A DNA stretch of 64,000 nucleotides from Clostridia bacterium (GTDB lineage Bacteria; Bacillota; Clostridia; Christensenellales; UBA1242). Numbering within the stretch: the stretch's first letter is position 1; each line of letters starts with the position of its first letter. Location: the NCBI GenBank assembly GCA_045594425.1, contig JAZNYK010000006.1, forward strand, positions 138,619 through 202,618, written 5' to 3'. A program made the translations under genes and the position numbers. Shown one piece after another: positions 1-58,224 of the stretch. The notes under the pieces are model-generated. The model saw only the letters and a program-made list of their open reading frames with translations. It was not told where the DNA came from and did not search any database.

Positions 1-606
1 ATTTTGAGAAACAATTCTTTTAAAATTTTTCAACAATAATTCAATATTATCGTACCCTGTCATTGTTAAAAATGCATTTTTAAATGAGTTATCTTGGTTG
101 CTTTGTAAAAAGAAATCACCAATTTTTTCACCATCAAAAAAATAAAATTTAAACAAATTTGGTGGAATTATATGAAGTAAATAATTTTCAAAATCAAGTA
201 ATTCATCACCAGCTAATTCTAAATTGTTTAAAGTAATTCTATAATTTTCTTTTACTTTTTTACCTTTCAATGACCACTCTCTAGTAATAGTATAAACATT
301 ATTATACATACCATCATCAAAAAGCAAATCTAATTCAACTTTAGCATAACCGTCAATTAAACTCTTTTGATTATCATTTATAAGCTTGTAAATTTCTTCA
401 TAATAATGTTGGTTTGTACTTTCATAGCCATAAGCCCTATGACCATAAATACAAGTTCTTAAAGATGTGAAAAATGTGGTTTTTCCTGCACCATTTTTTC
501 CACCAATTAAAATAATATTCTTATCTTTATTATTACAATCTATTTCAAAAACATTTTCACCAACATATGGGCCTACATTATAAAGAACTATCTTTTTTAT
601 CTTCAT
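1..606 (-). CDS. dndD: DndD, DNA sulfur-modification SMC-like ATPase (5' part only; gene runs off the left edge)
   Basis: Not in the supplied ORF track because no stop lies in the window. The reverse-strand ATG at 606-604 overlaps the dndC stop by 29 nt. My translation is MKIKKIVLYNVGPYVGENVFEI...IGGKNGAGKTTFFTSLRTCIYG...FYFFDGEKI. It has an N-terminal Walker A and the FDGE motif typical of DndD, and it sits in dndB-C-D order. Confidence 0.75.
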   Translation of the reverse strand, partial: MKIKKIVLYNVGPYVGENVFEIDCNNKDKNIILIGGKNGAGKTTFFTSLRTCIYGHRAYGYESTNQHYYEEIYKLINDNQKSLIDGYAKVELDLLFDDGMYNNVYTITREWSLKGKKVKENYRITLNNLELAGDELLDFENYLLHIIPPNLFKFYFFDGEKIGDFFLQSNQDNSFKNAFLTMTGYDNIELLLKNFKRIVSQN

Positions 607-1978
607 TTTTTAAACCTTCTTTAATGCTATCTACATGCAACCAACCTTGATTTACAATTTTATCAAAGTCTTTTTGTAGCTTATTTCCTCTTGTGTAATA
701 TTTATATTTATCAATTGATAATAACAGCTTTGACATTAATTCAAATGGAATATCTGAATCTTCAGCAGCTGTTTTAATCTGTTTAATTGTTCTATCATCA
801 TATAAAGGTGTTTTATATTCATCCCAAGGCAATTTCTTACCCTTAACCTTATAATAGGTATCCACTAACATTCTTCTAGATAAATCACCTTCATAATCCC
901 AAAGATTATCAATAATTTTTAATTCCTCTTCTGTAATTAAAGAAAAACCAGTTTCTACTTCAAGTCTCAATAATTTTTCTAATATAATTCTTCTTGCTTC
1001 AAGTTTAAATGGTCCTAAACCAACTTCACCATTAGCCTTATTATAAACTGAACCATTTCTTCTTTTATTATCTCTATACTTTGTATCACTTCTAATTGAA
1101 ACAAGCCAATTTCTGAAATTCCTTAATGGGATAAGTTCCGTTGAACCATGATTGATGAAATTTTGTAAAGACTTATCTTCTTTTACAATCGTACAACACC
1201 AGCAACCAAATCTTGAATTTCCAGTTACTGGAATTTTATCTTTATCAATTTCTCCAATAACACTTTGTTCTTCACCCATATCTTCACCTTGATACAAGTT
1301 GAACAAATATTTCATATCAGTACCCCAAGGGCTTTTAGCATCCCCCTTTAACAAGTACTCCCAAACAACTTCATTTTTTATTTTTGTTAATGGATTATAA
1401 ACATATGCATTTTCAATCTCTAAATGTGGCGTTAACAGTTTACCTTCAATTTCTCTAGAAGAAATACTTCTATTTCTTGCTAAACTTTCATCTTTTCTAA
1501 CACCTAATAAAATAACAACTTCACCATTTTCTTTAATCTTATTGTAAACAAAATTATTCATAGGATGGATTTTTAATCTTTCAGTACACCATCTAAATCC
1601 AGGTGCTTCTGGAGTTGGGTATCCTAAACCAATAACTAAAGACCAAAAAGTTTTATCTAATTCTGGATGAATAACTGTAGCTTCAATATTAAGATTTTCA
1701 GACTCAGAACACTTATTTATTGCTTTAGAAGAGTTATTCATATAACGACCTACAATTGGATTTTCAACCATTGTATCTGACGTTACAACAAATATTTTTT
1801 TTGTTCTTTCATTAGGTTTCAGTCTCTGCACTGCCTCATAAACAAGAGTAACTAATAGTGTAGAATCTTTTCCGCCACTATAACCAATTAACCATGGTCT
1901 ATTATCGTGTTTATAAACAACCATTATTTCGTTTATTATATCTTCAAATTCTTGAAATTTATCCATAAGCAATACCAT
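578..1978 (-). CDS. dndC: DndC, DNA phosphorothioation PAPS-reductase/ATP-pyrophosphatase-like protein
   Basis: 466 aa. It has a PP-loop (GYSGGKDSTLL) near the N-terminus and a cysteine cluster (FGCWCCT). It abuts the dndB stop (TAG|ATG) and overlaps the dndD start. Confidence 0.85.
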   Translation of the reverse strand: MVLLMDKFQEFEDIINEIMVVYKHDNRPWLIGYSGGKDSTLLVTLVYEAVQRLKPNERTKKIFVVTSDTMVENPIVGRYMNNSSKAINKCSESENLNIEATVIHPELDKTFWSLVIGLGYPTPEAPGFRWCTERLKIHPMNNFVYNKIKENGEVVILLGVRKDESLARNRSISSREIEGKLLTPHLEIENAYVYNPLTKIKNEVVWEYLLKGDAKSPWGTDMKYLFNLYQGEDMGEEQSVIGEIDKDKIPVTGNSRFGCWCCTIVKEDKSLQNFINHGSTELIPLRNFRNWLVSIRSDTKYRDNKRRNGSVYNKANGEVGLGPFKLEARRIILEKLLRLEVETGFSLITEEELKIIDNLWDYEGDLSRRMLVDTYYKVKGKKLPWDEYKTPLYDDRTIKQIKTAAEDSDIPFELMSKLLLSIDKYKYYTRGNKLQKDFDKIVNQGWLHVDSIKEGLKNEDKKDSSL

Positions 1979-3040
1979 CTATTTTAATTTTTTTAATTCT
2001 TCATTTGTTAATGGTAAATCAATTAAAGTCTTAATTTTAATAGAAGCAATTAAACTAGCGTCTTCATTATTTTGCACTTTACCATCTTCTCTAATAATGC
2101 TATTTTTCCAATAGTCATTAGTTCTAGACCAATTTATATTTTTTATACGAGGTAAATAATCCTCCAATTTATATTCTCTATTTTCATACAAAAAAGAACC
2201 TAGTTTACCAAATGCCATAATAGTTACAGCAAGAGTAATTATATAATCTTCTCGCAGACTTTTTTTTGTAAGTTCCTTATTCATCACTTCTTTCCATTCA
2301 GCTATATTCTCAGAAATTATTGTCCAATACCTAAATAAAAATTCTTCATCTTCTTCAGTAAAATCACCCTTTATAATCTTTTTATTAGCTTTATAGAGAT
2401 TATTTAAAGTAAACAATTTAGAAGAATTCTTACCTAAATTATCTTTTTCTTTATCTGTAAACATATTAAAGAAAGGAATTTTATTAATAATATTAGATGT
2501 TGCAACACCTACTTTATCCCTTCCATCATATAAAGTGGATATCGAATTAGAAGTCTTTACAGCATGTTTATTCAAATCTGTAAACATTTGCTGACTTCTT
2601 TTTAAACCTTCATCCTTAAACATAACAATGGAAATTGTTTCATTCTCAAGTGATGGGTCTTCTAAAATCGCTTTATCTATAGCCGCCTTTCTATGTTGAC
2701 CATCATTTATTAAAAAAACTGCATTCATATCAACTTCAAGAACACCCAATTCTTCTATTCTATCATTAGGTATAAATTCAAATTTACCATCTATTGAAGC
2801 TGATAACGCAGAAAATACATATGAATTTCTATTATCTAAAATATAATTTGTAATCTCAGGAATTCTCTGTTCATTTAATTTCCTTTGTGCTCTAAACTCT
2901 GGTAAAACGATATCGTTTCCATTATTAACAAACAATTTTGATAATAACCCCATTGGAATCATTGTAATGTAATAATCATTACCAGCTTGATGTCCCTTTA
3001 CAGCAGGAAATTTATAAGAAAAATTCATAAAAAACCTCAT
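1979..3040 (-). CDS. dndB: DndB, DGQHR-domain regulator of DNA phosphorothioation
   Basis: 353 aa. The N-terminus is YKFPAVKGHQAGNDYY and the family-defining DGQHR motif is present (FLINDGQHRKAAI). The start could be ATG 3040 or the better-spaced ATG 3028. Confidence 0.85.
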   Translation of the reverse strand: MRFFMNFSYKFPAVKGHQAGNDYYITMIPMGLLSKLFVNNGNDIVLPEFRAQRKLNEQRIPEITNYILDNRNSYVFSALSASIDGKFEFIPNDRIEELGVLEVDMNAVFLINDGQHRKAAIDKAILEDPSLENETISIVMFKDEGLKRSQQMFTDLNKHAVKTSNSISTLYDGRDKVGVATSNIINKIPFFNMFTDKEKDNLGKNSSKLFTLNNLYKANKKIIKGDFTEEDEEFLFRYWTIISENIAEWKEVMNKELTKKSLREDYIITLAVTIMAFGKLGSFLYENREYKLEDYLPRIKNINWSRTNDYWKNSIIREDGKVQNNEDASLIASIKIKTLIDLPLTNEELKKLK

Positions 3041-3046
3041 AAAAAA

Positions 3047-3074
3047 ATATACTTAAGTACATACTTAAGTATAT
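3047..3074. promoter_or_regulatory. 28-bp near-perfect palindrome (two TACTTAAGTA units), candidate operator of the dnd operon
   Basis: The sequence is ATATACTTAAGTAcaTACTTAAGTATAT. Only the central dinucleotide breaks the symmetry. It lies 7-34 nt upstream of the dndB ATG and overlaps the predicted -10. Confidence 0.4.
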
Positions 3075-3096
3075 TTATTTTAGTTGAATCAGTCAA
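3068..3096 (-). promoter_or_regulatory. Putative sigma70-type promoter of dndBCD
   Basis: Reverse strand: TTGACT (3096-3091), 17-nt spacer, TATACT (3073-3068). Confidence 0.4.
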
Positions 3097-3123
3097 TAAA
3101 TTATATATGCATATTGCATATAA

Positions 3124-3624
3124 TTAATCTTCTAACAAACATTTTTCTATTTCTTTAAAATCAATATTTAACCCATCAAAAGTATTAGATAAAAAACATT
3201 TTAGATTGTCCATTGTTACCATTTCATCTTTATCTATTTGCTCTTTTAGCTTTTTAACACCATAATTTGCAAATAATGTTAAAAAATCCATTCTTTTAAA
3301 TTCAATTTTTGATGAACTATTAAATGCTAAGTCTAATCTTTCATCTTCAGTCAACGAAATAGTTTTAGATGTAATTATAGCTGCCTGAAAAAGATAATCT
3401 AAAACACCTGTTCTATTGTTATTTTGAATAACATTTCTAGGAACGCTTTTAGAATCATCATTTTCTGTTGTGTTAATTTCTATTTGCTTATCATAAACTA
3501 TTCCAATAGCTACACATAATATATAAACATTATAATGCAGTGGTGAAGGAATAATATCACTTAGTAAATCTATGGTTTCAGACCAATCTCTACCCTTTAG
3601 CAATACGTCGCTCGTTAATTCCAT
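3124..3624 (-). CDS. Hypothetical 166-aa protein, translationally coupled to the upstream DndD-like ATPase
   Basis: ATG 3624 overlaps the ATPase stop by 10 nt (ATGGAATTAA). I recognise no motif. It may belong to the uncharacterised 'dnd system-associated' small-protein families, which needs an HMM search. Confidence 0.6.
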   Translation of the reverse strand: MELTSDVLLKGRDWSETIDLLSDIIPSPLHYNVYILCVAIGIVYDKQIEINTTENDDSKSVPRNVIQNNNRTGVLDYLFQAAIITSKTISLTEDERLDLAFNSSSKIEFKRMDFLTLFANYGVKKLKEQIDKDEMVTMDNLKCFLSNTFDGLNIDFKEIEKCLLED

Positions 3625-5567
3625 AAAAAGCCCTCCTTTACACTTGCAACATTCTTTTCTAAATTACTTTGAATTGTATAGACTTTACCAACTTGATCTT
3701 TTCCAAACAATGATTGTAGCTCATCTTTTGAAAACAAAATAACTTGTGGAGCGTATTCTGGAATAGTATCTATAACGTTTTGTCTTTGTTCAAAATCAAG
3801 TTTAGAAAATGGACCATCTAAAATTAAAGGATATTCTTTTTGCAATACCGAAGCTTCTTCTTTTAACAATTTTAAAATACCACCAATATATGCAAAAGAT
3901 ACAACAGCAAATTGTCCTTCAGATTTTGATTCATCGTTATATGTGTCTGTTACTTTAAAATGAAAATCTTCCCTAACCTCAACAGTCCTTTTACTTGTCA
4001 ACATCTTATCTATAAGATATTGAATAGATTCTTGTAATTTTTTACTATATATTTTAGCCGTTTCATCTAATTTTGCATCAAAATACATTTGCGCTTTCGT
4101 AAGTAATTGCATTTTTTTATCAATTATCTGGTTATTTGCAGAATTTTGAATAGCTTCATCATATCGCTTCATTTCTTTTTTCAAATATAGATTCAATTGA
4201 TTTAGCTTTTCATCACATTCTCTTATTTTTTCTTGAGTATCCTTCATTTCTTCTTCAGCTTTTTTCCTATCAATGATAAGTGGTTCTATATCTCTACTCA
4301 ATTTAAGCTTTCCATCAATAGCCACAATATCATCTTCTATTTCTTTTATAGATTTTTTATAATCTAAAATATCTGAAATTATTGAATCTAATTTCTTTTC
4401 ATCAAAATTATTAACATATTTTTCAGCAGCCTTAGTAAAATCATCATACATTCCCTTATATGAATTAGGCGGCAATAATTTAAAGAAATTTTTTAAAATT
4501 TCTCTTTCTGTGTCTCCAATACATCTTCCACAAAGGCAAACATCTTCTTTTGTTAACGCCTCTATTAAAGGTTTATTAACTCCTGTAATAAGTTTATCCT
4601 GAGCAACTTTTAACTTCAATTTATTTTTTGCATCAAGAACAACCTTGGAGATAATGGCTGTTGGAACCATATCAACAATATTCTGACCAAAGGATAACTT
4701 TTTATCTGAAATTGATTTAGTCATCAAATCTCTATTTTTCTTTAATTTTGATCTTTCTAACTCATATTCCGTCGCAGATTTCACTGACCCTATTTGTTCA
4801 GATAAATCAGCTACATTTTTTGCAGCTTGAGAAAAATTTTGTTTTAATGTTACTAATTTACTCTGCAATGTTTCAATATTACTTTGCACATTATTGATTC
4901 TCATCTTTTGATTTGCAGACTCATCTGCATCATATGATAAATCTTTATTTAAATATATTGAACCAATCGCTGTAGTTCTAAGATCCTTATTACCTATATG
5001 TTTTGAAGCCTTTTCATAAATATTTAAATCAAAAATTGAATAAATAGCATTCCTTAAAGAAGACGCTGACTCAGAACCTTTAACTTTTAAATCTGCTATC
5101 ATATTTTCGCCATCAAAAAAGAAATATTGAGAAAGCCCCTTTGGCATTAATTCTTCAATTACAGATTTTGGATTATTAACTCTATCCCAATTATTTTCAC
5201 TATTTTTCTTTCTTAAAATAAAATCTTCATCTAACTGAACACTTTCAAACAAAGCCTTTTTGTAATTTACCTGTCTTAACAATGTATAATAATCATTATT
5301 GTGTTCAAAATCTAGTTTTGCATAAACTCTGAACTCTTCACCGTTTTTTAAAGATGCTTCAAATTCATGATTATAAAGTTTTTTGCTTGCTGTTTTATTA
5401 AAATGAACTTCGCCATAAAAAACCCATTGAAACAATTGATGCAAAGTAGTCTTTCCATCACCATTTTTTCCATATATAATAGTAACTTTTCCATCACTAG
5501 CAAATTCAATAACATTTTTATCTTTAAAATTACGGAAATTTTCAAACTCTAATCTAATTATTTTCAT
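3615..5567 (-). CDS. DndD-family / SMC-like ABC ATPase (second copy in the cluster)
   Basis: 650 aa. It has a Walker A (GKNGDGKTT) and an FFFDGENM motif shared with the DndD fragment (FYFFDGEKI). The long central region is Lys/Glu/Leu-rich and coiled-coil-like. The C-terminus has a Walker-B-like YPLILDGPFSKLD. A GAAGAGG SD lies upstream. Confidence 0.75.
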   Translation of the reverse strand: MKIIRLEFENFRNFKDKNVIEFASDGKVTIIYGKNGDGKTTLHQLFQWVFYGEVHFNKTASKKLYNHEFEASLKNGEEFRVYAKLDFEHNNDYYTLLRQVNYKKALFESVQLDEDFILRKKNSENNWDRVNNPKSVIEELMPKGLSQYFFFDGENMIADLKVKGSESASSLRNAIYSIFDLNIYEKASKHIGNKDLRTTAIGSIYLNKDLSYDADESANQKMRINNVQSNIETLQSKLVTLKQNFSQAAKNVADLSEQIGSVKSATEYELERSKLKKNRDLMTKSISDKKLSFGQNIVDMVPTAIISKVVLDAKNKLKLKVAQDKLITGVNKPLIEALTKEDVCLCGRCIGDTEREILKNFFKLLPPNSYKGMYDDFTKAAEKYVNNFDEKKLDSIISDILDYKKSIKEIEDDIVAIDGKLKLSRDIEPLIIDRKKAEEEMKDTQEKIRECDEKLNQLNLYLKKEMKRYDEAIQNSANNQIIDKKMQLLTKAQMYFDAKLDETAKIYSKKLQESIQYLIDKMLTSKRTVEVREDFHFKVTDTYNDESKSEGQFAVVSFAYIGGILKLLKEEASVLQKEYPLILDGPFSKLDFEQRQNVIDTIPEYAPQVILFSKDELQSLFGKDQVGKVYTIQSNLEKNVASVKEGFLWN

Positions 5568-5703
5568 CTTTTAGAACCTCTTCAACTGCTTCCAAAATTT
5601 CTGAAACAATTTCCCTTTTGTTTTTATTGTTTTCTGTATCAAATTTATCAGTAGAATGACTTTTTTCTATAGATTCAATCTTACTAATAAGTTTATTTAC
5701 CAT
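5554..5703 (-). CDS. Unlisted 49-codon ORF filling the helicase-ATPase gap (hypothetical)
   Basis: My translation is MVNKLISKIESIEKSHSTDKFDTENNKNKREIVSEILEAVEEVLKDENN. The ATG at 5703 lies 8 nt after the helicase TAA, and the stop (5556-5554) lies 11 nt inside the ATPase gene. It is below the ORF-track size cutoff. SD spacing is poor, so coupling or reinitiation would be needed. Confidence 0.35.
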   Translation of the reverse strand: MVNKLISKIESIEKSHSTDKFDTENNKNKREIVSEILEAVEEVLKDENN

Positions 5704-5710
5704 TTCCTCA

Positions 5711-7741
5711 TTATTCATCAATATCTACCTCCAAACTATTTTCATAATCCATAACAATATCCTCTCTGCGAATTCCATATGCAGAAATTAATTCAATTAA
5801 TTTTATTTCATTTTCGTCTTTATTTAAAGATAATCTGTTATATTCGTTGTACCTTCTTAATTCTATTTTAGTAATATCAGAACTTCCCAACACAATTACA
5901 TCATAAATATTAGCATATTTCTTACCTTTATATGTTCTTAAAATTCTTCCCCTTCTTTGAACAAATTCTCTGTAATCATCATTGCTTGATAATATTAAAG
6001 CCGATTCAATAGATGGAATATTTATACCCTCATCCAAACATCTAATTGCGACAAGAGATGATATTACACCTTTATTAAAATCTTCCACCATATCCATTCT
6101 ATCAATCATGTTTTCAGTCGCTGTAAATTGACTTGCTTTTATATTTAATTCACTAAGTACATTTTTTATAAATTGAATATGCCTTAATTCTTCTCCATCA
6201 TCTCCAAGCACTTTACCATCTCCACAGTAAACTATGAAATGCTCTTTATTTTTTACAAGATTAATAATACTTTCTATTTTATCAATCTTTTCTTGTACCA
6301 TAGAAATTGTTCTTAACTTTCCTCGAGCAGCAATTATCAATTTATCTTTGTCAATTAAAACACCATCTTTAAAACAAGTTATCATCATTTTTTGGTATTT
6401 ATCAAACATTTCTTCTTCTGAAGGTGTTGCATGTACAAATATAGGATAGTAATTATAAGGCACCAAATAACCCTTTTGAAGAGCAACTTCTATAGGTAAA
6501 TCAAAAACTTTTCCTCCAAAGAAATCCATTAATTCATTTGCTTTTACAATATTATTCTTGCTTACAGGAGTTGCACTTAACCCTAGCATATATTGATATT
6601 CATCATTTAAAGAAGACTCTCTTTCAGTAAATCTATGTGCTTCATCAACAATTAATAATTTTTCCTCAGGTATCTTCTTTACTACATTCTTAAACCTATC
6701 AAGGTTAAATGAAGATATCGTTGAAATAATAATAAGTTGTCTATTTTCTGAATATTTCTTTCTTAGTATTTCTTCTTCAATTTCTGAATTCCATAAACTA
6801 TTTTCTGAAGAAACCATAACTATTTTTGCATCAGGAAATGCTTTAATAACATCTTCAGACCACTGTCTAACCAAGTGTTTGTATGGCGCGCAGATTACAA
6901 TTGTAGATTTGTGATTTTTTACTAGTTCCTTAGCAGAATAAATTGCAGTCCAAGTTTTTCCAGTACCTGTTGCCATAACATAAAATCCATGATAATTATT
7001 AGCAACCCAGGCATCAATTGCCTGTTTTTGATAATCTCTCAACTCTATTCCTGTTGATACTTTCGCAGTTTTTTTAATATCTAACACTTTTATCACATGT
7101 TGTTTTAATGCATCTTTTACTTCAAGAGTTAAATTGAATTCATTTTTTCCATTCCACAACTTATCAAACTCATCCAGTTCATCCTGCACATATTCATTTT
7201 CTATTTCATTCCAACTTTTAAATACTCGTATTTTTTCATAATTGTTCTCATATGCATTTAAACTCTCGTTTGGTGAACCGACAAAACAAATTTTATTCCC
7301 TACATAATCCTCAAGAATTGCTAATTTATCATGGTACATACCAATTCCATTTGTAACCACGAGTTTAATATCTAATATATCATAAGCAATTAATTGAGAG
7401 ACAATTTCCAAATCCTCAATCGGTAATTTTGATAATTCTATATCAAAATCATTGAAAAACGAGTTTGCAATAATTTCTTCTCTTTTTTGATATCCCTCTA
7501 ATATAGCTTTTACATCTTCATCACTTAAATGTGGGCTTGCTAAAAGTTGGATTTTACCCCTATTCCTTGCTAGTGCTGAAACACCTTCTAATAAAGAATT
7601 AAAAACAGAGCTTGAAAAAAATCCAACACTTCTTTTATATACCCTTGTATTTTTCAATGCCGGATTTATAAAATCATTAAGTATATTGGAACCACCATAA
7701 CTAATATAACTTCTTTGCAACTCTAATTCTTTAAAATTCAT
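5711..7741 (-). CDS. HKD (phospholipase-D family) nuclease fused to a DEAH-box SF2 helicase; restriction-endonuclease-like
   Basis: 676 aa. The N-terminal part has an HxKx4D...GSxN motif (YHDKLAILED...GSPNES). Helicase motifs follow: ATGTGKT (Walker A), LIVDEAHRF (DEAH), LSATP (III) and QRRGRILR (VI). It starts 2 nt after the upstream gene's stop. Confidence 0.8.
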   Translation of the reverse strand: MNFKELELQRSYISYGGSNILNDFINPALKNTRVYKRSVGFFSSSVFNSLLEGVSALARNRGKIQLLASPHLSDEDVKAILEGYQKREEIIANSFFNDFDIELSKLPIEDLEIVSQLIAYDILDIKLVVTNGIGMYHDKLAILEDYVGNKICFVGSPNESLNAYENNYEKIRVFKSWNEIENEYVQDELDEFDKLWNGKNEFNLTLEVKDALKQHVIKVLDIKKTAKVSTGIELRDYQKQAIDAWVANNYHGFYVMATGTGKTWTAIYSAKELVKNHKSTIVICAPYKHLVRQWSEDVIKAFPDAKIVMVSSENSLWNSEIEEEILRKKYSENRQLIIISTISSFNLDRFKNVVKKIPEEKLLIVDEAHRFTERESSLNDEYQYMLGLSATPVSKNNIVKANELMDFFGGKVFDLPIEVALQKGYLVPYNYYPIFVHATPSEEEMFDKYQKMMITCFKDGVLIDKDKLIIAARGKLRTISMVQEKIDKIESIINLVKNKEHFIVYCGDGKVLGDDGEELRHIQFIKNVLSELNIKASQFTATENMIDRMDMVEDFNKGVISSLVAIRCLDEGINIPSIESALILSSNDDYREFVQRRGRILRTYKGKKYANIYDVIVLGSSDITKIELRRYNEYNRLSLNKDENEIKLIELISAYGIRREDIVMDYENSLEVDIDE

Positions 7742-7743
7742 TT

Positions 7744-9288
7744 TTATAACTTCCCAGTAATAAATTTTTTAATTTCTTCATCAGAAAACATATCTTCAGC
7801 GTCATAGTCATCATCAAGCAAATCGATCCACAATGATATTTTATTTAAAGCATCACTTATTATATCTTTTTCTAAAACAGAAGTTATTTCAACTGATTCA
7901 AATGGTAGGAAAAGCAACTGTGACATTTTAAAATATCCATTACTTTTACATATATCTACGAACTTATTATACTTTTCCTCAATAAAATTAAAATCAATAT
8001 TTTCATCGTTGTTTAAAGCGTCTTCTAATGTACTTCGTGAATAAGAAGAGAACTTTGTATATATAAAGTTAAAATCTTTTTTCTCATAATAAACTATACC
8101 ATCTTTTAAAGATATAAAATTCAAGTATGTCGATTCTGCGTTATATTTTGTCTTTACAAAATGTTTAATATCTCCAAGTGATGTACCACATTCTTCACAT
8201 ATTTTATCAACAATTTTTACTGCTTGTTCTGGACCAAAATTTACATTTAAATAATAATCGATACTTAGTTTTGTAGGTTTTATGAAATCCTTTTTTGTTT
8301 TTGACAATAACTTTTGACCATCAAAATCACACAACTCTTTTAATTTTGATAAATTATTAAAATTAACTTGTATTAAATATTCAACAGATTTAGCAATCAT
8401 AGAGTGCCAACTATCAACAAAAATTTCCTGACCATTTATCTTAAATGAAACAATTTTTGTCATCTTAAATACATCTCTATCTGAAGGTTTGCTAATTAAA
8501 ATACAATCCTCTGTTAAATCCGGAGCATTTCGTGAAGTAATACAGCTAAAAAATTGAAGATACAATTTTAAAATAATGTTTACCGACTTTCTTATATCTA
8601 ATCTATCTGCATATCTCAAATCAATATAATTAATAAATTTTTTACTATGTTTTAAAAGTTCGGTTTTTGAATCCATTAAAACTAATGGAACTCTTGCACT
8701 GCTCACTTTAAAGAAGATATTATCTATTTTTGAAAAATAATCTATTTTCGCATCCGCATATTTTTCAGATTTCCCCTTAAAATTCATTAACCATTTCTTA
8801 AATTTAAAATATAAATCCTCTTTAACAAAATTTTGAATTTCTTGAGGCTCGTCACATGCCTTTCTTTTATATAAAACTTCTACTTTATCTAAATCTATCT
8901 CTGCATATTTGAGTAACTCTCTGATAAGCCATAGCAAATGTAAAGAATCCGTATTTGTCTCCACATAAATTCCACTTCTTGAAATCTTTGGAGAAATAAA
9001 TTTATGTTTTTCGTTATTTGAAAAAAATTGTCTCTTCGTCCAAGGAACTTCAAATGTTGAACAATTGAAATAAAAATCTTTTTTAAACTTATCAATGTAA
9101 TCTATGGTTTCTACAACAGCGTTAGCCCATGTATTTACATAAATTATATCATTATTGATTTTAATAATATATGGTCTTGAATATTCGTATTTATTGACAT
9201 AATCAAAAAAATCAGCCTTGTATAATCTTCCACCCTGATATAATACAACATTATGCTTATTAAATAATTCTTTTTCCTTATCAATCAT
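7744..9288 (-). CDS. Hypothetical 514-aa protein with an internal duplicated motif
   Basis: The ORF is long, uninterrupted and tightly packed in the operon. I see no catalytic motif. Two related ~30-aa segments occur: YIIKINNDIIYVNTWANAVVETIDYI and VSFKINGQEIFVDSWHSMIAKSVEYL. Confidence 0.6.
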   Translation of the reverse strand: MIDKEKELFNKHNVVLYQGGRLYKADFFDYVNKYEYSRPYIIKINNDIIYVNTWANAVVETIDYIDKFKKDFYFNCSTFEVPWTKRQFFSNNEKHKFISPKISRSGIYVETNTDSLHLLWLIRELLKYAEIDLDKVEVLYKRKACDEPQEIQNFVKEDLYFKFKKWLMNFKGKSEKYADAKIDYFSKIDNIFFKVSSARVPLVLMDSKTELLKHSKKFINYIDLRYADRLDIRKSVNIILKLYLQFFSCITSRNAPDLTEDCILISKPSDRDVFKMTKIVSFKINGQEIFVDSWHSMIAKSVEYLIQVNFNNLSKLKELCDFDGQKLLSKTKKDFIKPTKLSIDYYLNVNFGPEQAVKIVDKICEECGTSLGDIKHFVKTKYNAESTYLNFISLKDGIVYYEKKDFNFIYTKFSSYSRSTLEDALNNDENIDFNFIEEKYNKFVDICKSNGYFKMSQLLFLPFESVEITSVLEKDIISDALNKISLWIDLLDDDYDAEDMFSDEEIKKFITGKL

Positions 9289-9318: not shown

Positions 9319-11265
9319 CTAAGAGTTTATCCTTTCAATAAACTTGGTAATAACCTTCTTTTTAAATTCTAGATACTGATTCGTCTCAAACACAAATACA
9401 AATCTTGACCCTATTTCTCTTTCAATATCATCTTCTTCTGTTAATGATTCAGTATAATCACTAAAAGTTTCTTCTGCTTCTTTTATATACATTTTTGTAT
9501 AATCACATTGAACTTCAGATAGTTTCGTCTTTAACAATTCTATTTTCTTACAAATTAAATTATTTTTTAATAAGGTCTCATTTATCTTCTTAGGAATAAA
9601 AATAAAATTAAATACATCATCTTTTAAAAGTCTAATATTTTCAGAATAGTTACAACTAAATTCTTTAGTTCCAATCTTAACTATATATTTTCCAGAATCA
9701 TTTATCAAAAAATGTTCTACCGAAAAATTATCAACAGAATTCAAATAATCTGTTAATTTCGAATAAGCACCACCTCTAATAACAATTTTTTCGCCTTTTA
9801 TTTGAAAAAAATTATAAATAGATGCAAGCATTTTTGCTTTGTATTGTTGCGAAATATTTAAACCATCTTCATCGACATTAAATTGCGTATTATTTATATT
9901 TCTAGTTAACCACTCTAAAGTTGTCATATTTTTAATTTTACTAAGCAACTTTACTTGTATATTTTTTTCTTTTATTATATCTGTAATCATTTCAGTATTT
10001 TTTCTTATTTTTGATAAAGATAATAAATTACAATACATAACAATAGAATAAATCGTTTCTGCAATCTTTTTTCTGTTTAAATCATTAGCATCTTGTAATT
10101 CTAAAAAGTACTTTATTATAAATGCATTCGTAATAAGCATCGTTTGATCTTTTAATATCGTAGAAATATAACTATTTATAATATTATACTGCACATTGGA
10201 TATTTGAGCTTTTGTTAAGATATCTTTTAACTTTGGAGATATTCCAGAAGGATTATTTTTTATTTCAACAAGTATTTCTAATATTGAATTCAACCTTTTT
10301 AGCATATTTCTAAAATATGTTTTATTATTGACAACTTTTATTATATGAGTACCCTCATAATACATCGAACCATCTATTTCAATACTATGTTTCAATAGGA
10401 AGTCTTTTCCAAATCGTACATCCATATATTTCTCATTTAAATATAAATCACAATATAAGAAATGTTGTAACATATCAACAATTTCATATTTTTTCTTTTT
10501 AAAACCCTCATTGAAATTAGAGTTTAACTGCTTTAACATTCTCCATGATTGTTTTATTTCATCGCCTGAATCAATAGAATATAAATAACTAGCAAAAATA
10601 TCTTCATCATCCAATTGAACGCCTTTTAAATTAACATCTAAAAAATATTGCATACCTTTACTTGATGAAGTATCACTAGAAACAATAACATTAAAAACAC
10701 TGTTTTTTAAATTTTGTAAAAAATCAGCAACTTTCTCTTTATTATTAATAACTTGACACTGTGTAATTTCTTTGTAAATTAAACAGTAAGAATCTAATTG
10801 CCTGTAATAATCTAAAGTTACAATGTTATTAATTTGCTCTTCATTTAGACCATCTAAAGTATAATTATTTTCCCTTAATTTCTGAAATGATGGAAAATTC
10901 TCAATTTTTAAAGAACATTGTTCAAATATATCTAAGTCTTCCTCATATTTGCTTCTTATATAATCCAAAATCATTAATAAAATAGTAATTCTCTGTTGAC
11001 CATCTATTATATCAAATACATTTCCACCACTTTCTTTTAAAATAATATTTCCTAGGAATATATTGTTTTTTGACAAATCTCTAATTAATTCTAATAGTTG
11101 CTGTTTACCCCATCTTAATTCTCTTTGAAAGCTTGGAATGTTATACTCTCTACATGGAGCCAATACTTTTACTTCCGAATTTCCACTATTTGTTTGTATA
11201 TTAATTTTAGATTCTTTATTATGTAAAAAATATTCCAAATTAATAATAGTACCAAAAAGATCCAT
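9319..11265 (-). CDS. DUF262 (ParB-like, DGQQR) protein with a degenerate DUF1524/His-Me-finger-like C-terminus; GmrSD/SspE-like architecture
   Basis: 648 aa. The N-terminus has IPSFQRELRWGKQQ...DIIDGQQRITIL. The C-terminus has VEHF...NFIFIPKKINETLLKN. An AAAGGAG SD lies upstream. Confidence 0.7.
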   Translation of the reverse strand: MDLFGTIINLEYFLHNKESKINIQTNSGNSEVKVLAPCREYNIPSFQRELRWGKQQLLELIRDLSKNNIFLGNIILKESGGNVFDIIDGQQRITILLMILDYIRSKYEEDLDIFEQCSLKIENFPSFQKLRENNYTLDGLNEEQINNIVTLDYYRQLDSYCLIYKEITQCQVINNKEKVADFLQNLKNSVFNVIVSSDTSSSKGMQYFLDVNLKGVQLDDEDIFASYLYSIDSGDEIKQSWRMLKQLNSNFNEGFKKKKYEIVDMLQHFLYCDLYLNEKYMDVRFGKDFLLKHSIEIDGSMYYEGTHIIKVVNNKTYFRNMLKRLNSILEILVEIKNNPSGISPKLKDILTKAQISNVQYNIINSYISTILKDQTMLITNAFIIKYFLELQDANDLNRKKIAETIYSIVMYCNLLSLSKIRKNTEMITDIIKEKNIQVKLLSKIKNMTTLEWLTRNINNTQFNVDEDGLNISQQYKAKMLASIYNFFQIKGEKIVIRGGAYSKLTDYLNSVDNFSVEHFLINDSGKYIVKIGTKEFSCNYSENIRLLKDDVFNFIFIPKKINETLLKNNLICKKIELLKTKLSEVQCDYTKMYIKEAEETFSDYTESLTEEDDIEREIGSRFVFVFETNQYLEFKKKVITKFIERINS

Positions 11266-11375: not shown

Positions 11376-12452
11376 TTAAGTTTTCCATTTAAATATTGTT
11401 GCAATTTTATTTTTAATGTTAACTGTATAAGCAACCTTTCCTTTTGAATTCTTTATTATAATTTCAAAATTATCACAAGGTATTATTATTGACATCTTAT
11501 TGATGTACTCATTTATATCCTCCTTTTGTAATTCAACAAATGTTTTTAATGTAAGAAAATATACACCCATCTTATACTCACTGCTTAAAATTTCTATCCC
11601 ATAATTCTTTGATATTTCCATAAGTATTATTTCTTTACCTTCAAAGCAATCTACAGGAACACTTTCCTGGTGTAATTCTAAAATTTTTTCATCAAACAAA
11701 GAATGATATTCAATAAATATAACATCATAAATTAAACGAAATAAGCATCCTAAAGTATCTATTTTAATAGTTATTTCTTCTAAATCCTTCAATTGAATAA
11801 CTTTATTAACTCTTCCATTACTGTATGTAATATGAATATCTTCACTCCTATCCATTCTGTAACTTTTATGTTCAGCAATATTTCTCCATTGGTTGATATT
11901 GATATCATTTAAATATTCATTAAAAATAAATTTATATACTGGATCAAATTCTGAAAGTCCACCTACCATTTCTCCCAGTGTTTTTGTTCTTTCCTTGTTA
12001 CAAAATAAATTATAATGCAATAATATTTGTGGCTTAATATATACTTCAACCACAGTATTTATCAAATTAAATAAATATTGCATTTTTATATTCCCTTGTT
12101 CTGGAGGTTCATAATTATTTATCAAAGCATTCTCTGCAAAATGTCTAAAACTATCTGATATATTACAATAATTTTCATTGATAATCTCACTAAAATATTC
12201 AACATCAGCGGTCTTATTTCTTATTAAATTAAGAATATCATTTAAAATATCCTTATCACTAAAAAATTGTTTAACTCTTTTATAATAGGTATAATCATAA
12301 TTTAAAACCCCAAATTCGCAAATTTTTTTCAACTCTTGCTTACTAGTAATAAAAAATATTTCCTTTAATTCATTATAAACATCCTCTACTGTAAATCTTC
12401 CACATTGTGCCATCTCGTTTTTTAAACTTTTAAACAACTCTTTCTTATCCAT
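11376..12452 (-). CDS. Hypothetical protein with HEPN-type R-x4-H motif
   Basis: 358 aa. The only recognisable element is NQWRNIAEHKSY (RN-x3-H). It appears to be its own transcription unit, with an SD (AAGGGGA), an upstream promoter-like TTGATT-16-TGgTATAAT and a weak AT-rich hairpin downstream. Confidence 0.55.
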   Translation of the reverse strand: MDKKELFKSLKNEMAQCGRFTVEDVYNELKEIFFITSKQELKKICEFGVLNYDYTYYKRVKQFFSDKDILNDILNLIRNKTADVEYFSEIINENYCNISDSFRHFAENALINNYEPPEQGNIKMQYLFNLINTVVEVYIKPQILLHYNLFCNKERTKTLGEMVGGLSEFDPVYKFIFNEYLNDININQWRNIAEHKSYRMDRSEDIHITYSNGRVNKVIQLKDLEEITIKIDTLGCLFRLIYDVIFIEYHSLFDEKILELHQESVPVDCFEGKEIILMEISKNYGIEILSSEYKMGVYFLTLKTFVELQKEDINEYINKMSIIIPCDNFEIIIKNSKGKVAYTVNIKNKIATIFKWKT

Positions 12453-12916: not shown

Positions 12917-14425
12917 ATGAAGACAGCAGTTATTTATGCAAGATATTCAAGCGATAAGCAAACCGATCAATCTATTGAAGGACAACTTCGAGTTTGCAAT
13001 GATTACGCAAATAGAAACAAAATTTTAGTTGTTGGCACATATATTGACCGTGCAACGACAGGAACTAATGATAATCGTATTGATTTTCAAAGAATGATGC
13101 GTGATAGTTTCAAAAAAGAATGGGATTATATCTTAGTTTATAAACTAGATAGATTCTCAAGAAACAAATACGAGATGGCTATGCACAGAAAAACTCTCAG
13201 GGATAATGACGTTAAAATTTTATCAGCCAGTGAGCACATACCCGAAACACCCGAAGGAATTCTTATGGAATCTTTGCTTGAAGGTATGGCTGAATATTAC
13301 TCAGCTGAACTATCTCAAAAAGTTAAAAGAGGACAAAACGAAAACAGACAAAAAGGACTATATACTGGAGGTCCACTTCTTTATGGTTATCAAGTAAAAG
13401 ATAGATCTATATCTATCAACGAAGACGAAGCTCAAATTGTCAAATATATTTTCGAAAGCCATGCATCAGGAAAATACGCCAGAGAAATTTGTGAAGAGTT
13501 GACTGAAAGAGGCATTTACCACATAGGCAAACCATTTCAAGAAAATACTGTCATTAAGTTTTTGAAAAACGAAAAGTATATTGGCATTTATAGACACGGG
13601 GACGAAGTTTTCACAAACATCTACCCTGCTATAATTCCAAAACATTTGTTTTATGCTGTAAGAGAAAGATTGGCTGCAAACCATTATGGAAAACATTCAC
13701 TAGAAACAAAATATCTTTTAGGCGATAAACTCTTTTGCGGTTATTGTGGACATAAAATGCTATCCACTTCCGGTGCCGGAAAAGATGGAGTTCTTCGAAG
13801 ATATTATAATTGCCACGGCAGAGTTAAATTAAAAACCTGTAAAAAACGCAGCGTTAGAAAAGAACTTATAGAAAACCTTGTTGTTGAAGTTACTTTTAAA
13901 ATTTTTGAAAACAAAGAAAACTTAAATTTTCTTGCCGATAAAGTTATTGAACTTCATAATTCAAAAATTGAAAACCATTCAGTTCTTAATATCTTAGAAA
14001 AAGAAAGAGATGAAGTAAGTAATAATCTTAACAACATTATGATGTGTTTAGAACAAGGAATAACAAGCGAATCAACAAAAAAGAGACTTCTGGAACTTGA
14101 TAAACGATTAAAAGAATTGAACGAAAAGATATCACTAGAAAAGCAAAAAGACAGAAAACCAATTCTTTCAAAAAAAGATGTTATATACTTTATAACCCAT
14201 CAATTAAAACAAGAACCCGACGTAATAATTCAATTACTAGTCAAGAAAGTAATTATTTATGACGACAAAGTTGAAATTATTTTTAACTACACTCACAAAA
14301 AGGACACCCTTGATTCCCTTCAAGAGTGCCCTTTTTATATTGACAAAATTTCAAGAACAATCAAAAATACGAAAATCAATCAAAATGATTATGAATTGAC
14401 TTTTGAACTTGAAGCTTATTTTTAA
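12917..14425 (+). CDS. Large serine recombinase
   Basis: 502 aa. The N-terminal resolvase/invertase domain reads AVIYARYSSDKQ...IEGQ...DRFSRN. A recombinase domain follows, then a Cys-rich zinc-ribbon region (CGYCGHKM...YYNCHG...C) and a coiled-coil-like tail. An AGGAGG SD lies upstream. Confidence 0.85.
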   Translation: MKTAVIYARYSSDKQTDQSIEGQLRVCNDYANRNKILVVGTYIDRATTGTNDNRIDFQRMMRDSFKKEWDYILVYKLDRFSRNKYEMAMHRKTLRDNDVKILSASEHIPETPEGILMESLLEGMAEYYSAELSQKVKRGQNENRQKGLYTGGPLLYGYQVKDRSISINEDEAQIVKYIFESHASGKYAREICEELTERGIYHIGKPFQENTVIKFLKNEKYIGIYRHGDEVFTNIYPAIIPKHLFYAVRERLAANHYGKHSLETKYLLGDKLFCGYCGHKMLSTSGAGKDGVLRRYYNCHGRVKLKTCKKRSVRKELIENLVVEVTFKIFENKENLNFLADKVIELHNSKIENHSVLNILEKERDEVSNNLNNIMMCLEQGITSESTKKRLLELDKRLKELNEKISLEKQKDRKPILSKKDVIYFITHQLKQEPDVIIQLLVKKVIIYDDKVEIIFNYTHKKDTLDSLQECPFYIDKISRTIKNTKINQNDYELTFELEAYF

Positions 14426-58067: not shown

Positions 58068-58144
58068 GGGGGTATAGCTCAGCTGGCTAGAGCGCCTGCC
58101 TTGCAAGCAGGAGGTCATCGGTTCGATTCCGATTATCTCCACCA
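58068..58144 (+). tRNA. tRNA-Ala (anticodon UGC), CCA encoded
   Basis: I folded the cloverleaf by hand. The acceptor is GGGGGTA/TATCTCC, including the G3:U70 identity pair. The anticodon loop is CTTGCAA and the T-loop is a canonical TTCGATT. Confidence 0.9.
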
Positions 58145-58147
58145 TAT

Positions 58148-58224
58148 AGGACTGTAGCTCAGTTGGTTAGAGCACCACCCTGATAAGGTGGGGGTCGGAG
58201 GTCCGAGTCCTCTCAGTCCTACCA
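58148..58224 (+). tRNA. tRNA-Ile (anticodon GAU), CCA encoded, unusual T-loop
   Basis: The acceptor is AGGACTG/CAGTCCT and the anticodon loop is CTGATAA. The T-arm is GGAGG-TCCGAGT-CCTCT, so the T-loop starts TCC instead of TTC. Confidence 0.8.

What the first reader, a model, noticed from the sequence alone, without database searches (positions are those of the whole stretch)
3124..5567. A second DndD-family ATPase with an overlapping 166-aa partner immediately upstream of dndB
The 650-aa protein shares several features with the bona fide DndD fragment at 1-606. These are the N-terminal layout (MK-I-x-L-x-N-F...GKNG-x-GKTT), the FFDGE motif and a Walker-B-like LILDGPFSKLD.

The cluster therefore encodes two DndD paralogues. 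One sits inside the modification operon. The other is in a separate two-gene unit, coupled by a 10-nt overlap to a small protein with no recognisable motif.

A duplicated SMC-like ATPase suggests a sensor or motor dedicated to the restriction side rather than the modification side. Alternatively it may be an SspC-like activity.
Basis: partly seen in the sequence, partly recalled or inferred. Interest (0 to 1): 0.65.

Follow-up and report, generated by a model that had tools for sequence, protein, structure and literature searches.

The report
PbeC–PbeD pair of a PbeABCD defence cassette
The second "DndD-like" ATPase and its small overlapping partner are PbeC and PbeD, two parts of the already described four-gene PbeABCD anti-virus cassette that often sits beside DNA-phosphorothioation (dnd) genes, so this is an ordinary new example of a known system.

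Summary
A 650-aa ABC ATPase (3615-5567, minus strand) overlaps a 166-aa ORF (3124-3624) by 10 nt, immediately upstream of dndB-dndC-dndD.

It is not a free-standing two-gene unit. It is the distal half of a translationally coupled pbeABCD cassette:
- PbeA: HKD nuclease plus SF2 helicase, 5711-7741.
- PbeC: the 650-aa ATPase.
- PbeD: the 166-aa protein.

PbeC scores 1e-80 on PADLOC PbeC models and 8e-40 on DndD models. It has the invariant CxCG "Zn-hook" motif that defines the CxC ABC-ATPase sister clade of DndD. Its model folds as a Rad50-like head with a coiled coil.

PbeD has no direct profile hit. Its position, 10-nt overlap and size match PbeD. Its AlphaFold model shows two strand-helix-helix repeats, and its top PDB match is DndE, though weakly.

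Forty genomes, mostly Clostridia, carry the same pbeA-(B)-C-D core; 36 continue into dndB(or a gap)-dndC-dndD, and a dndE ORF was found after dndD in 31 of them. This tandem arrangement is published (Xiong 2019; NAR 2024, PMC10853773).

Verdict: a new member of a known kind, of low interest. The locus-specific oddity is an orphan 514-aa gene upstream of pbeA.

The parts
5711..7741 (-). pbeA: a 676-aa protein with an N-terminal PLD/HKD nuclease domain and an SF2 (ResIII/DEAH) helicase. The HKD motif HDKLAILEDYVGNKICFVGSPN is at aa 137-158 (nt 7268-7333). Helicase motifs are ATGTGKT (aa 257-263), DEAH (366-369), SATP (389-392) and QRRGR (595-599).
   Evidence: PADLOC PbeA gives E 4.1e-186 over the full length. 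TIGR04095 dnd_restrict_1 gives E 3.7e-105 but is below its cut-off. Pfam finds ResIII, Helicase_C and PLDc_2. The HKD motif is present in 36 of 36 orthologues.
5554..5718 (-). pbeB candidate: a 54-aa acidic small protein (ATG at 5718; an in-frame TTG at 5721 would give 55 aa). Its start overlaps the pbeA stop by 8 nt (11 nt from the TTG) and its end overlaps the pbeC start by 14 nt. A GGAGG lies 6-9 nt upstream.
   Evidence: Searches show the ORF. Gene callers on independent metagenome contigs called a 54-aa gene here. A small ORF of about 50-57 aa in its conserved part bridges pbeA and pbeC in 35 of 38 related loci with both genes, with conserved motifs IVxxMIxFIEEKE and DVVKSILDELE; an alignment of 24 of these ORFs shows the motifs. 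The window copy is 25-37% identical to them.
3615..5567 (-). pbeC: a 650-aa CxC-type coiled-coil ABC ATPase, the sister clade of DndD. Motifs: Walker A GKNGDGKTT (nt 5445-5471), FFFDGE (5106-5123), CxCG Zn-hook motif CLCGRC (4521-4538), LPPNSY (4458-4475), signature SEGQ (3912-3923), Walker B/D-loop LILDGPFSKLD (3795-3827).
   Evidence: PADLOC PbeC gives E 1.1e-80 against E 7.8e-40 for the best DndD model. C344, C346 and G347 are invariant in 31 homologues. C.CG is present in 38 of 38 PbeC-slot proteins and 0 of 36 DndD proteins, and identity is 47% to PbeC-slot proteins against 17% to DndD. The AF2 model has pLDDT 82.5 and shows head, two long antiparallel helical arms and an apex at residues 317-370. 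Foldseek top matches are Rad50, JetC, Smc and LmuB, down to E 1.5e-16.
3124..3624 (-). pbeD candidate: a 166-aa partner of PbeC. It is predicted to be a DndE-like double ribbon-helix-helix DNA-binding protein with a C-terminal extension of four helices.
   Evidence: It overlaps pbeC by 10 nt and has an AGGAGG RBS. Orthologues at 42-50% identity lie in the same slot in 40 genomes. The family has 188 clusters at 50% identity. The AF2 model has pLDDT 83 and pTM 0.80, with elements E7-9/H12-21/H29-44 and E59-61/H63-69/H74-85 followed by four helices. The Foldseek PDB top hit is DndE 4lrv_C (E 0.77, prob 0.63, TM 0.56 on the target), with further DndE chains (4lrv, 5wtu) in the top 50. Three of 78 members hit PADLOC PbeD, best E 2.9e-4. 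There is no Pfam DndE hit, and hhalign against canonical DndE is not significant.
3029..3123 (-). pbeD-dndB intergenic region. It holds a promoter-like TTGACT-17-TATACT (3096-3068) and two tandem copies of the 10-bp palindrome TACTTAAGTA (3071-3062 and 3059-3050). It is a candidate promoter and operator for the dnd operon.
   Evidence: Sequence and scan. Promoter-like matches in the region as a whole are no more frequent than in shuffles, so this is only a lead.
1..3040 (-). Modification genes dndB (1979-3040, more likely starting at 3028), dndC (578-1978) and the dndD N-terminus (1-606, running off the window).
   Evidence: TIGR03233 DndB scores 400 bits, above its cut-off. TIGR03183 DndC scores 375 bits, above its cut-off. 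The DndD fragment matches TIGR03185 at E 1.7e-43. PADLOC finds DndB, DndC and DndD.
7744..9288 (-). Orphan 514-aa gene ending 2 nt before pbeA. It is probably co-transcribed and its role is unknown.
   Evidence: It has no significant Pfam or PADLOC match even at E<=10; the only NCBIfam match is a spurious T4SS_SepA_fam hit (E 0.0029, 17 bits against a cut-off of 110). The homologue search of 5.8 billion proteins returned only a 99%-identical copy from ENA metagenome assemblies. It is unrelated to the roughly 890-aa gene that fills this slot in 38 related loci.

Best explanation
The 650-aa protein is PbeC. It is a Rad50-like coiled-coil ABC ATPase of the 'CxC' clade, with a Zn-hook CxCG at the coiled-coil apex, and this clade is the sister group of DndD.

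The overlapping 166-aa protein is its obligate partner PbeD, a very divergent DndE-type DNA-binding protein with two ribbon-helix-helix repeats.

Together with PbeA (HKD nuclease fused to an SF2 helicase/translocase) and the 54-aa PbeB, they form a translationally coupled pbeABCD cassette. The cassette sits directly upstream of the PT-modification operon dndBCD(E).

What is shown here: the gene identities, motifs, fold predictions, overlaps and conserved synteny.

What is taken from the literature for homologous systems: all four pbe genes are needed for PT-dependent protection. The system blocks replication of unmodified viral DNA, and PT-modified virus escapes (Xiong et al. 2019, PMC6459918).

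What is inferred:
- PbeC dimerises through its heads and Zn hook and, guided by PbeD, clamps or scans DNA at the recognition motif to read its modification status.
- On unmodified (foreign) DNA it licenses PbeA to translocate, and either nick/cleave or obstruct replication.
- PbeB acts as a small regulatory or assembly subunit.
- Host DNA is protected by PT marks written by DndC/DndD/DndE.
For: - PADLOC: PbeC E 1.1e-80 with full-length coverage, and PbeA E 4.1e-186 for the gene upstream.
- The DndD equivalog model is matched end to end but far below its cut-off (91.5 against 245.85 bits), as expected for a sister clade.
- CxCG is invariant in 31 database homologues. It is present in 38 of 38 PbeC-slot proteins and 0 of 36 DndD proteins from the same genomes. 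Average-linkage clustering splits the two groups cleanly, with the window protein in the PbeC group.
- The AF2 model of PbeC has a split ABC head, two long antiparallel helical arms and an apex carrying the CxC motif. Its best PDB matches are Rad50, JetC, Smc and LmuB.
- The PbeD model has pLDDT 83 and two beta-alpha-alpha units. Its top PDB match is DndE 4lrv, and further DndE chains (4lrv, 5wtu) appear in the top 50.
- Three of 78 PbeD family members hit PADLOC PbeD.
- The 10-nt pbeC/pbeD overlap and the order pbeA-(B)-C-D are conserved in all 40 loci from distinct species; 36 of these continue into dnd genes (dndB was not detected in 4 of the 36), and a dndE ORF was found in 31.
- PMC10853773 states that PbeC is the CxC ABC ATPase, PbeD is the DndE cognate, PbeB is a small protein and PbeA is HKD plus SF2. 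It also states that such systems lie in tandem with DndDE systems in 936 bacterial and 41 archaeal taxa.
Against: - The 166-aa protein itself hits no Pfam, NCBIfam or PADLOC model, even at E<=10.
- None of 78 family members hits Pfam DndE.
- Profile-profile comparison with canonical DndE from the same genomes is not significant (E 0.12, probability 0.5%).
- The DndE fold match is weak (E 0.77, TM 0.39 on the query). Homology of PbeD to DndE therefore rests mainly on position, predicted topology and the literature.
- No expression data could be found.
- The mechanism is disputed. Xiong et al. saw no viral DNA cleavage, whereas the NAR 2024 authors (PMC10853773) predict cleavage or abortive self-targeting by the HKD domain.
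- PT dependence is not shown for this locus. In the literature, 58% of pbeAC pairs lack neighbouring dnd genes.
Confidence: 0.85

Rival explanations
1. The pair is a second modification-type DndD-DndE module. It would direct PT (or another modification) to a second sequence motif, rather than acting in restriction.
For: - PbeC is homologous to DndD along its full length.
- The partner is DndE-like in fold.
- PMC10853773 proposes that ABC-DndE pairs recognise target motifs, and that some CxC systems associate with methylases.
Against: - There is no second dndC or dndA, and no methyltransferase, in the cassette.
- The pair is instead fused into an operon with an HKD nuclease-helicase.
- In the only tested system, all four pbe genes were needed for defence and were dispensable for PT modification.
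- The CxC motif separates the protein from modification-type DndD in every genome examined.
Confidence: 0.05
2. The pbeABCD cassette works independently of PT. It could be a stand-alone, abortive-infection-like system that attacks DNA, including self DNA, when triggered by a phage. The adjacency to dnd would then be only defence-island clustering.
For: - Xiong et al. found that 320 of 553 pbeAC pairs have no dnd genes within 10 kb.
- PMC10853773 argues for decoupling and a possible suicide mode, with PbeB as a released inhibitor.
- L005, L039, L041 and L044 show pbeABCD without dndBCD in the sequence held, although three of these are cut by contig ends.
Against: - In 36 of 40 related loci the cassette abuts the dnd genes (dndB, or dndC where dndB was not detected); in 35 of them these follow immediately downstream on the same strand, and in L024 the dnd operon is inverted.
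- Experimentally, PT-modified virus escaped PbeABCD, and protection required the dnd genes.
Confidence: 0.08
3. The ATPase belongs to another defence ATPase family (SspC, Gabija GajA/OLD, Lamassu LmuB or Wadjet JetC), and the small ORF is an unrelated or spurious gene.
For: - Foldseek finds LmuB and JetC among the strong structural matches.
- Pfam gives only generic AAA_23/SMC_N domains.
Against: - Those structural matches reflect the fold shared by all coiled-coil ABC ATPases, and Rad50 ranks first.
- At the sequence level, 24 of the 25 listed PADLOC hits are PbeC or DndD models; the other is one mad3 model.
- The small ORF is conserved at 42-50% identity in 40 species, with the same 10-nt overlap.
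Confidence: 0.02

Closest known systems
PbeABCD of Haloterrigena jeotgali A29 (Xiong et al. 2019, Nat Commun 10:1688, PMC6459918)
   Same: - Four genes in the order A-B-C-D next to dnd modification genes.
- PbeA has type III Res/DEAD helicase motifs; its PLD/HKD nuclease domain was identified in the NAR 2024 re-annotation (PMC10853773).
- PbeB is very small (66 aa there, 54 aa here).
- PbeC is an AAA_23-type coiled-coil ATPase.
- PbeD is small (152 aa there, 166 aa here).
   Different: - This is a bacterial, low-GC gut Clostridia-like host rather than a haloarchaeon.
- The cassette lies upstream of dndB, which the archaeal dndCDEA lacks.
- PbeD here is too divergent to hit the PADLOC PbeD models directly.
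- An orphan 514-aa gene precedes pbeA.
- No function has been tested for this locus.
CxC ABC ATPase-DndE systems (NAR 2024, PMC10853773, and that group's earlier ABC ATPase classification cited there as ref. 24)
   Same: - CxC(G) Zn-hook motif at the coiled-coil apex.
- Obligate downstream DndE-like partner.
- HKD plus SF2 helicase and a small protein in the same operon.
- Tandem placement beside a DndD-DndE modification system, reported in 936 bacterial taxa.
   Different: Nothing essential differs. PbeB in this clade is moderately conserved and predicted helical rather than 'rapidly evolving, mostly disordered'. PbeD carries a C-terminal extension of about 80 aa and four helices beyond the double RHH.
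DndD-DndE of the dndBCDE modification operon
   Same: - Homologous ABC head motifs: GKNGxGKTT, FFDGE, an SxGE/Q signature and the Walker B/D-loop hhhD-x-P-x-x-x-hD.
- About 650 aa with a coiled-coil insert.
- Small double-RHH partner encoded immediately downstream.
   Different: - Only 15-21% identity to DndD of the related genomes.
- DndD lacks the CxC hook (0 of 36).
- PbeC scores below the DndD equivalog cut-off.
- DndD/E are required for PT writing, whereas PbeC/D are required for defence.
Rad50/SbcC with Mre11/SbcD
   Same: Split ABC head, antiparallel coiled coil and a cysteine Zn hook at the apex. It is the best structural match (E 1.5e-16).
   Different: - Much shorter coiled coil.
- CxC rather than CxxC hook motif.
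- The partner is an RHH protein plus an HKD-helicase, not an Mre11 phosphoesterase.
- The residue after the Walker B Asp is Gly, not Glu.

Membership tests
PbeC / CxC-type ABC ATPase | Full-length similarity to PbeC profiles that exceeds the similarity to DndD profiles | tested here: met
   PADLOC PbeC PDLC02741 gives E 1.1e-80 over residues 3-613 of 650. The best DndD model gives E 7.8e-40. Identity is 47% to PbeC-slot proteins and 17% to DndD.
PbeC / CxC-type ABC ATPase | [quoted passage not shown] | tested here: met
   CLCGRC lies at aa 344-349. C344, C346 and G347 are invariant in 31 homologues. The motif is present in 38 of 38 PbeC-slot proteins and 0 of 36 DndD proteins. In the AF2 model it lies in the apex segment 317-370 between the two helical arms. 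Zinc binding itself was not tested.
PbeC / CxC-type ABC ATPase | Coiled-coil ABC ATPase architecture: split head and a coiled-coil insert of about 400 residues | tested here: met
   The AF2 model (pLDDT 82.5) has head halves at 1-210 and 528-650 and helices 215-316 and 370-522. Foldseek top matches are Rad50, JetC and Smc.
PbeC / CxC-type ABC ATPase | Obligate DndE-like partner gene immediately downstream | tested here: met
   The 166-aa ORF overlaps pbeC by 10 nt, and this is conserved in 40 loci. For the nature of the partner, see the PbeD rows.
PbeD / DndE cognate | Sequence similarity to PbeD or DndE profiles | tested here: inconclusive
   The window protein hits nothing at E<=10. Three of 78 family members hit PADLOC PbeD, best E 2.9e-4. 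None of 78 hits Pfam DndE. hhalign against canonical DndE gives E 0.12.
PbeD / DndE cognate | Two ribbon-helix-helix repeats (DndE fold) | tested here: inconclusive
   The AF2 model (pLDDT 83, pTM 0.80) has two strand-helix-helix units at 7-44 and 59-85. The best PDB match is DndE 4lrv, with further DndE chains (4lrv, 5wtu) in the list, but E is 0.77 and TM is 0.39 on the query and 0.56 on the target.
PbeABCD system | Four-gene cassette in the order pbeA (HKD plus SF2 helicase), pbeB (small), pbeC, pbeD | tested here: met
   PbeA matches at E 4.1e-186. The 54-aa ORF bridges A and C. All junctions overlap.
PbeABCD system | PT-dependent protection against viruses, with all four genes required | not testable with these tools
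   Only the adjacency to dndBCD is shown. The function is known from H. jeotgali.
DndD (TIGR03185 equivalog) | Score above the curated equivalog cut-off | tested here: not met
   The score is 91.5 bits against a cut-off of 245.85. The protein is a paralogue of the superfamily, not DndD proper.
SspC / Gabija / OLD | Similarity to the family profiles | tested here: not met
   No such model appears among the NCBIfam hits or the 25 listed (of 56) PADLOC hits.

The most novel reading that the evidence does not exclude
The gut-Clostridia PbeD family (166 aa, 188 clusters) may not be a true DndE homologue. It could be an independently recruited double-RHH adaptor whose four-helix C-terminal extension bridges the PbeC heads in a kleisin-like way.

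In this particular genome, the orphan 514-aa protein has replaced the otherwise conserved ~890-aa HTH protein upstream of pbeA. It could act as a lineage-specific sensor or specificity subunit. That would make this a five-component variant of Pbe.
Probability: 0.12. Interest if true: 0.4.

Novelty: new member of a known kind. Interest (0 to 1): 0.15.

Why it matters
The main value is correct annotation. Automated pipelines leave PbeD, PbeB and often PbeC unnamed; no source in the protein collection gave any of them a name. A second "DndD" next to dnd genes can then be mistaken for a duplication of the modification machinery.

Recognising the cassette shows that this gut bacterium carries a complete PT-based modification-plus-defence island.

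The conserved clade of 40 or more Clostridial loci has well-predicted PbeC and PbeD models and a conserved PbeB. It could serve as a tractable bacterial model for the open question of how PbeABCD stops phage: by cleavage or by replication block.

Tried and rejected
- **Direct family assignment of the 166-aa protein.** No hits in Pfam, NCBIfam or PADLOC, even at E<=10.
- **Profile search of PDB sequences with the PbeD family.** Only a marginal hit to HP0162 (1mw7, E 4e-4 over 70 residues), judged a chance helical match.
- **hhalign of the PbeD family against canonical DndE from the same genomes.** Not significant.
- **Pfam scan of all 78 PbeD family members.** No DndE hit.
- **PADLOC scan of the 10 most distant PbeD members.** No PbeD hit. 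The three members that do hit were not identified individually.
- **Look-up of the DndC protein to extend the window leftwards to dndE.** No exact record was found. dndE was therefore inferred from related loci only.
- **Names from source databases.** None were available.
- **The orphan 514-aa protein.** No homologues found, and no relation to the c3 protein that occupies its slot elsewhere.
- **RNA-seq evidence for co-transcription.** No runs available.
- **Promoter and terminator scans.** Counts are at or below shuffled expectation, so operon boundaries remain inferred from gene overlaps.
- **SspC, Gabija, OLD or Lamassu membership.** Rejected on profile scores.
Full report
**1. Observation**

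All genes in the first 12.5 kb lie on the minus strand. The 650-aa ORF (3615-5567) and the 166-aa ORF (3124-3624) exist as described. They overlap by exactly 10 nt (ATGGAATTAA), and an AGGAGG lies 8 nt before the downstream ATG.

The ATPase is a distant relative of the DndD fragment at 1-606. BLASTP gives 24% identity over 189 aa with E 2e-10. The NCBIfam DndD equivalog TIGR03185 aligns end to end (E 4.5e-26) but scores 91.5 bits against a cut-off of 245.85.

Downstream are bona fide dndB and dndC, both above their equivalog cut-offs, and the dndD N-terminus.

**2. What the ATPase is**

Against PADLOC, 24 of the 25 listed matches (of 56) are PbeC or DndD models. The eight best are all PbeC (best E 1.1e-80, residues 3-613), ahead of the first DndD model at E 7.8e-40.

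The gene immediately upstream (5711-7741) is PbeA:
- PADLOC gives E 4.1e-186, and TIGR04095 'DNA phosphorothioation system restriction enzyme' gives E 3.7e-105.
- It has an intact HKD motif at aa 137-158 and SF2 motifs I, II, III and VI.

The 143-bp 'gap' between pbeA and the ATPase is filled by a 54/55-aa ORF (5554-5718/5721). This ORF overlaps the pbeA stop and the ATPase start and has its own GGAGG. Independent gene callers annotated it on metagenome contigs.

So the unit is pbeA-pbeB-pbeC-pbeD, with every junction overlapping. It is not a two-gene unit.

**3. Literature**

Xiong et al. 2019 (PMC6459918) defined PbeABCD in Haloterrigena jeotgali:
- PbeB is 66 aa and PbeD is 152 aa. PbeC carries pfam13476.
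- All four genes are required for about 10^4-fold protection against virus SNJ1.
- Protection depends on DndCDEA modification, and PT-modified virus escapes.
- Viral DNA replication is inhibited with no visible cleavage.

The NAR 2024 study (PMC10853773) re-annotated the system:
- PbeC is the 'CxC' ABC ATPase. It is the sister clade of DndD and is distinguished by a CxC Zn hook at the coiled-coil apex.
- PbeD is its cognate, highly divergent DndE (two RHH repeats).
- PbeB is a small protein, and PbeA is an HKD endoDNase fused to an SF2 helicase.
- DndD-centred and CxC-centred systems lie in tandem in 936 bacterial and 41 archaeal taxa. That is 22% of taxa with a Dnd modification system.

**4. 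Tests of those defining features here**

CxC motif and clade:
- The window protein has CLCGRC at aa 344-349. C344, C346 and G347 are invariant in an alignment of 31 database homologues.
- In 40 genome loci retrieved with the 166-aa family, every PbeC-slot protein has C.CG in its middle (38 of 38). No DndD from the same genomes does (0 of 36).
- The window protein is 42-49% identical to the former and 15-21% identical to the latter. Average-linkage clustering separates the two groups perfectly.

Structure:
- AlphaFold2 with that alignment gives pLDDT 82.5. The model has N- and C-terminal head halves (1-210 and 528-650), two long helical arms (215-316 and 370-522) and an apex segment 317-370 that holds the CxC.
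- Foldseek against the PDB returns Rad50 first (E 1.5e-16), then JetC, Smc, LmuB and MukB.
- No solved relative is detectable by sequence.

Head motifs:
- The motifs are the DndD-type ones. The signature is SEGQ here against SNGEK/SAGEK in DndD.
- Walker B/D-loop is LILDGPFSKLD here against IIDTPFARID/IIDTPLSRLD in DndD.
- The residue after the Walker B Asp is therefore Gly, not the catalytic Glu of Rad50/SMC, and it is invariant in the family.

**5. The 166-aa partner**

By itself it matches nothing in Pfam, NCBIfam or PADLOC, even at E<=10.

It is nevertheless a real, conserved protein:
- 30 clusters lie at 45-52% identity, all 157-175 aa.
- An exhaustive profile search finds 188 representative clusters.

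Structure prediction:
- AlphaFold2 gives pLDDT 83 and pTM 0.80.
- The model has two consecutive strand-helix-helix units (E7-9/H12-21/H29-44 and E59-61/H63-69/H74-85) followed by four helices.
- The best PDB match is E. coli DndE (4lrv_C). Further DndE chains (4lrv, 5wtu) appear in the list, which otherwise holds obviously spurious nuclear-receptor and ribosomal-protein hits.
- The statistics are weak: E 0.77, probability 0.63, TM 0.56 normalised on DndE and 0.39 on the query.

Sequence bridges are thin:
- Three of 78 family members hit the PADLOC PbeD model, best E 2.9e-4, and PbeD is the only family hit more than once.
- None of the 78 hits Pfam DndE.
- hhalign against an alignment of bona fide DndE proteins from the same genomes is not significant. 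Three representatives of that alignment, one per subtype, match Pfam DndE at E 2e-6 to 9e-37. The short region that hhalign aligns is the topologically equivalent one.

I therefore call it PbeD by position, size, coupling and predicted topology. Its homology to DndE remains probable, in line with the published statement that CxC-linked DndEs are very divergent, but it is not demonstrated here.

**6. Conservation of the arrangement**

All 40 loci carry pbeA-(small ORF)-pbeC-pbeD with the same 10-nt C/D overlap. They come from distinct species, mostly gut and rumen Clostridia MAGs. Named examples include Eubacterium brachy ATCC 33089, Butyrivibrio sp. Su6 and Ohessyouella blattaphilus.

Thirty-six of the 40 continue into dnd genes; dndB was not detected in four of them. 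A dndE ORF was found after dndD in 31. Further downstream, 12 loci carry dndA and 10 a DUF262 gene related to the window's 648-aa protein; two others carry a canonical GmrSD.

The small pbeB ORF is present in 35 of the 38 loci that hold both pbeA and pbeC. It has conserved motifs, and the window copy is 25-37% identical to the others.

The window organism occurs in bovine, goat, sheep and other gut metagenomes.

**7. Mechanism**

Shown here: the identities, motifs, predicted folds, translational coupling and synteny.

Established for a homologous system: PT-dependent defence needs all four genes.

Inferred:
- A PbeC dimer (head engagement plus Zn hook) with PbeD as its sequence- or modification-reading DNA-binding subunit scans DNA.
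- Unmodified target sites license the PbeA translocase/HKD nuclease.
- PbeB regulates or stabilises the complex.

Whether the outcome is nicking, cleavage or a replication block is unresolved in the literature.

Rivals and their weights:
- A second modification-type DndDE pair: 0.05.
- A PT-independent stand-alone or abortive system: 0.08.
- Membership of another ATPase defence family: 0.02.

These are disfavoured by the operon content, the conserved abutment to dnd genes, and the profile scores.

**8. What is locus-specific**

- In 38 related loci the gene before pbeA is 'c3', a roughly 890-aa protein with an RNA-polymerase alpha-CTD-like domain and a sigma-70 region 4 HTH. It has no defence-family match.
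- In the window, that slot holds an unrelated 514-aa orphan; the homologue search returned only a 99%-identical copy of it from ENA metagenome assemblies.
- Upstream of it lie a DUF262/GmrSD_N protein and a 358-aa protein. Their homologues sit downstream of dndE in other loci.
- A large serine recombinase at 12917-14425 and a GC step mark the island edge.

**9. Verdict**

The system is a new, roughly 50%-divergent member of the known PbeABCD / CxC-DndE kind in its commonest genomic arrangement. Interest is low.

Noticed in passing
window 7744-9288 (-): An orphan 514-aa ORF ends 2 nt before pbeA. It has no significant Pfam, NCBIfam or PADLOC match, and the search of 5.8 billion proteins returned only a 99%-identical copy of it from ENA metagenome assemblies. 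It replaces the conserved gene found in this slot in related loci.
   Followed up: partly
L005:3149-5872, L010:3201-5867 and 36 other loci, directly upstream of pbeA: A conserved ~890-aa protein ('c3') lies upstream of pbeA. It has an N-terminal RNA_pol_A_CTD-like domain and a Sigma70_r4 HTH, and the rest is unknown. It has no convincing PADLOC defence family; only weak MzaA/PglW domain-level hits. It may be an undescribed fifth component of Clostridial pbe cassettes. It is absent from the window.
   Followed up: partly
window 9319-11265 (-) and 11376-12452 (-): A 648-aa DUF262/GmrSD_N protein (DGQQR at aa 88-92; possible degenerate His-Me 'EHF' at aa 517-519) is followed upstream by a 358-aa unknown protein. 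Homologues of the 648-aa protein lie next to the dnd genes in 10 related loci, in most of them right after dndE; in L014 a homologue of the 358-aa protein follows it. Other loci carry a canonical GmrSD/SspE-like protein there. This may be an additional PT-linked nuclease module.
   Followed up: partly
window 3029-3123 (-): The pbeD-dndB spacer has TTGACT-17-TATACT (3096-3068) overlapped by two tandem copies of the palindrome TACTTAAGTA (3071-3062 and 3059-3050). This is a candidate DndB operator and dnd promoter. dndB probably starts at ATG 3028 (GAGG 7 nt upstream) rather than at 3040.
   Followed up: no
window 12917-14425 (+) and about 12500: A large serine recombinase (502 aa) borders the defence genes on the opposite strand. 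GC rises from 0.24-0.29 to 0.31-0.33 there, which suggests the edge of a mobile or acquired island.
   Followed up: no
L001:1210-3160 and L004:1-1457: Metagenome contigs that encode an identical PbeD protein and are near-identical to the window carry pbeC split into 206 and 424 aa, or truncated with a 166-nt gap before pbeD. These are either natural inactivation of the ATPase in some populations or assembly errors.
   Followed up: no
window 58068-58224 (+): tRNA-Ala(TGC) and tRNA-Ile(GAT) lie 3 nt apart. This pair is typical of rRNA-operon spacers, but no large ORF-free rRNA-sized stretch was examined around it.
   Followed up: no
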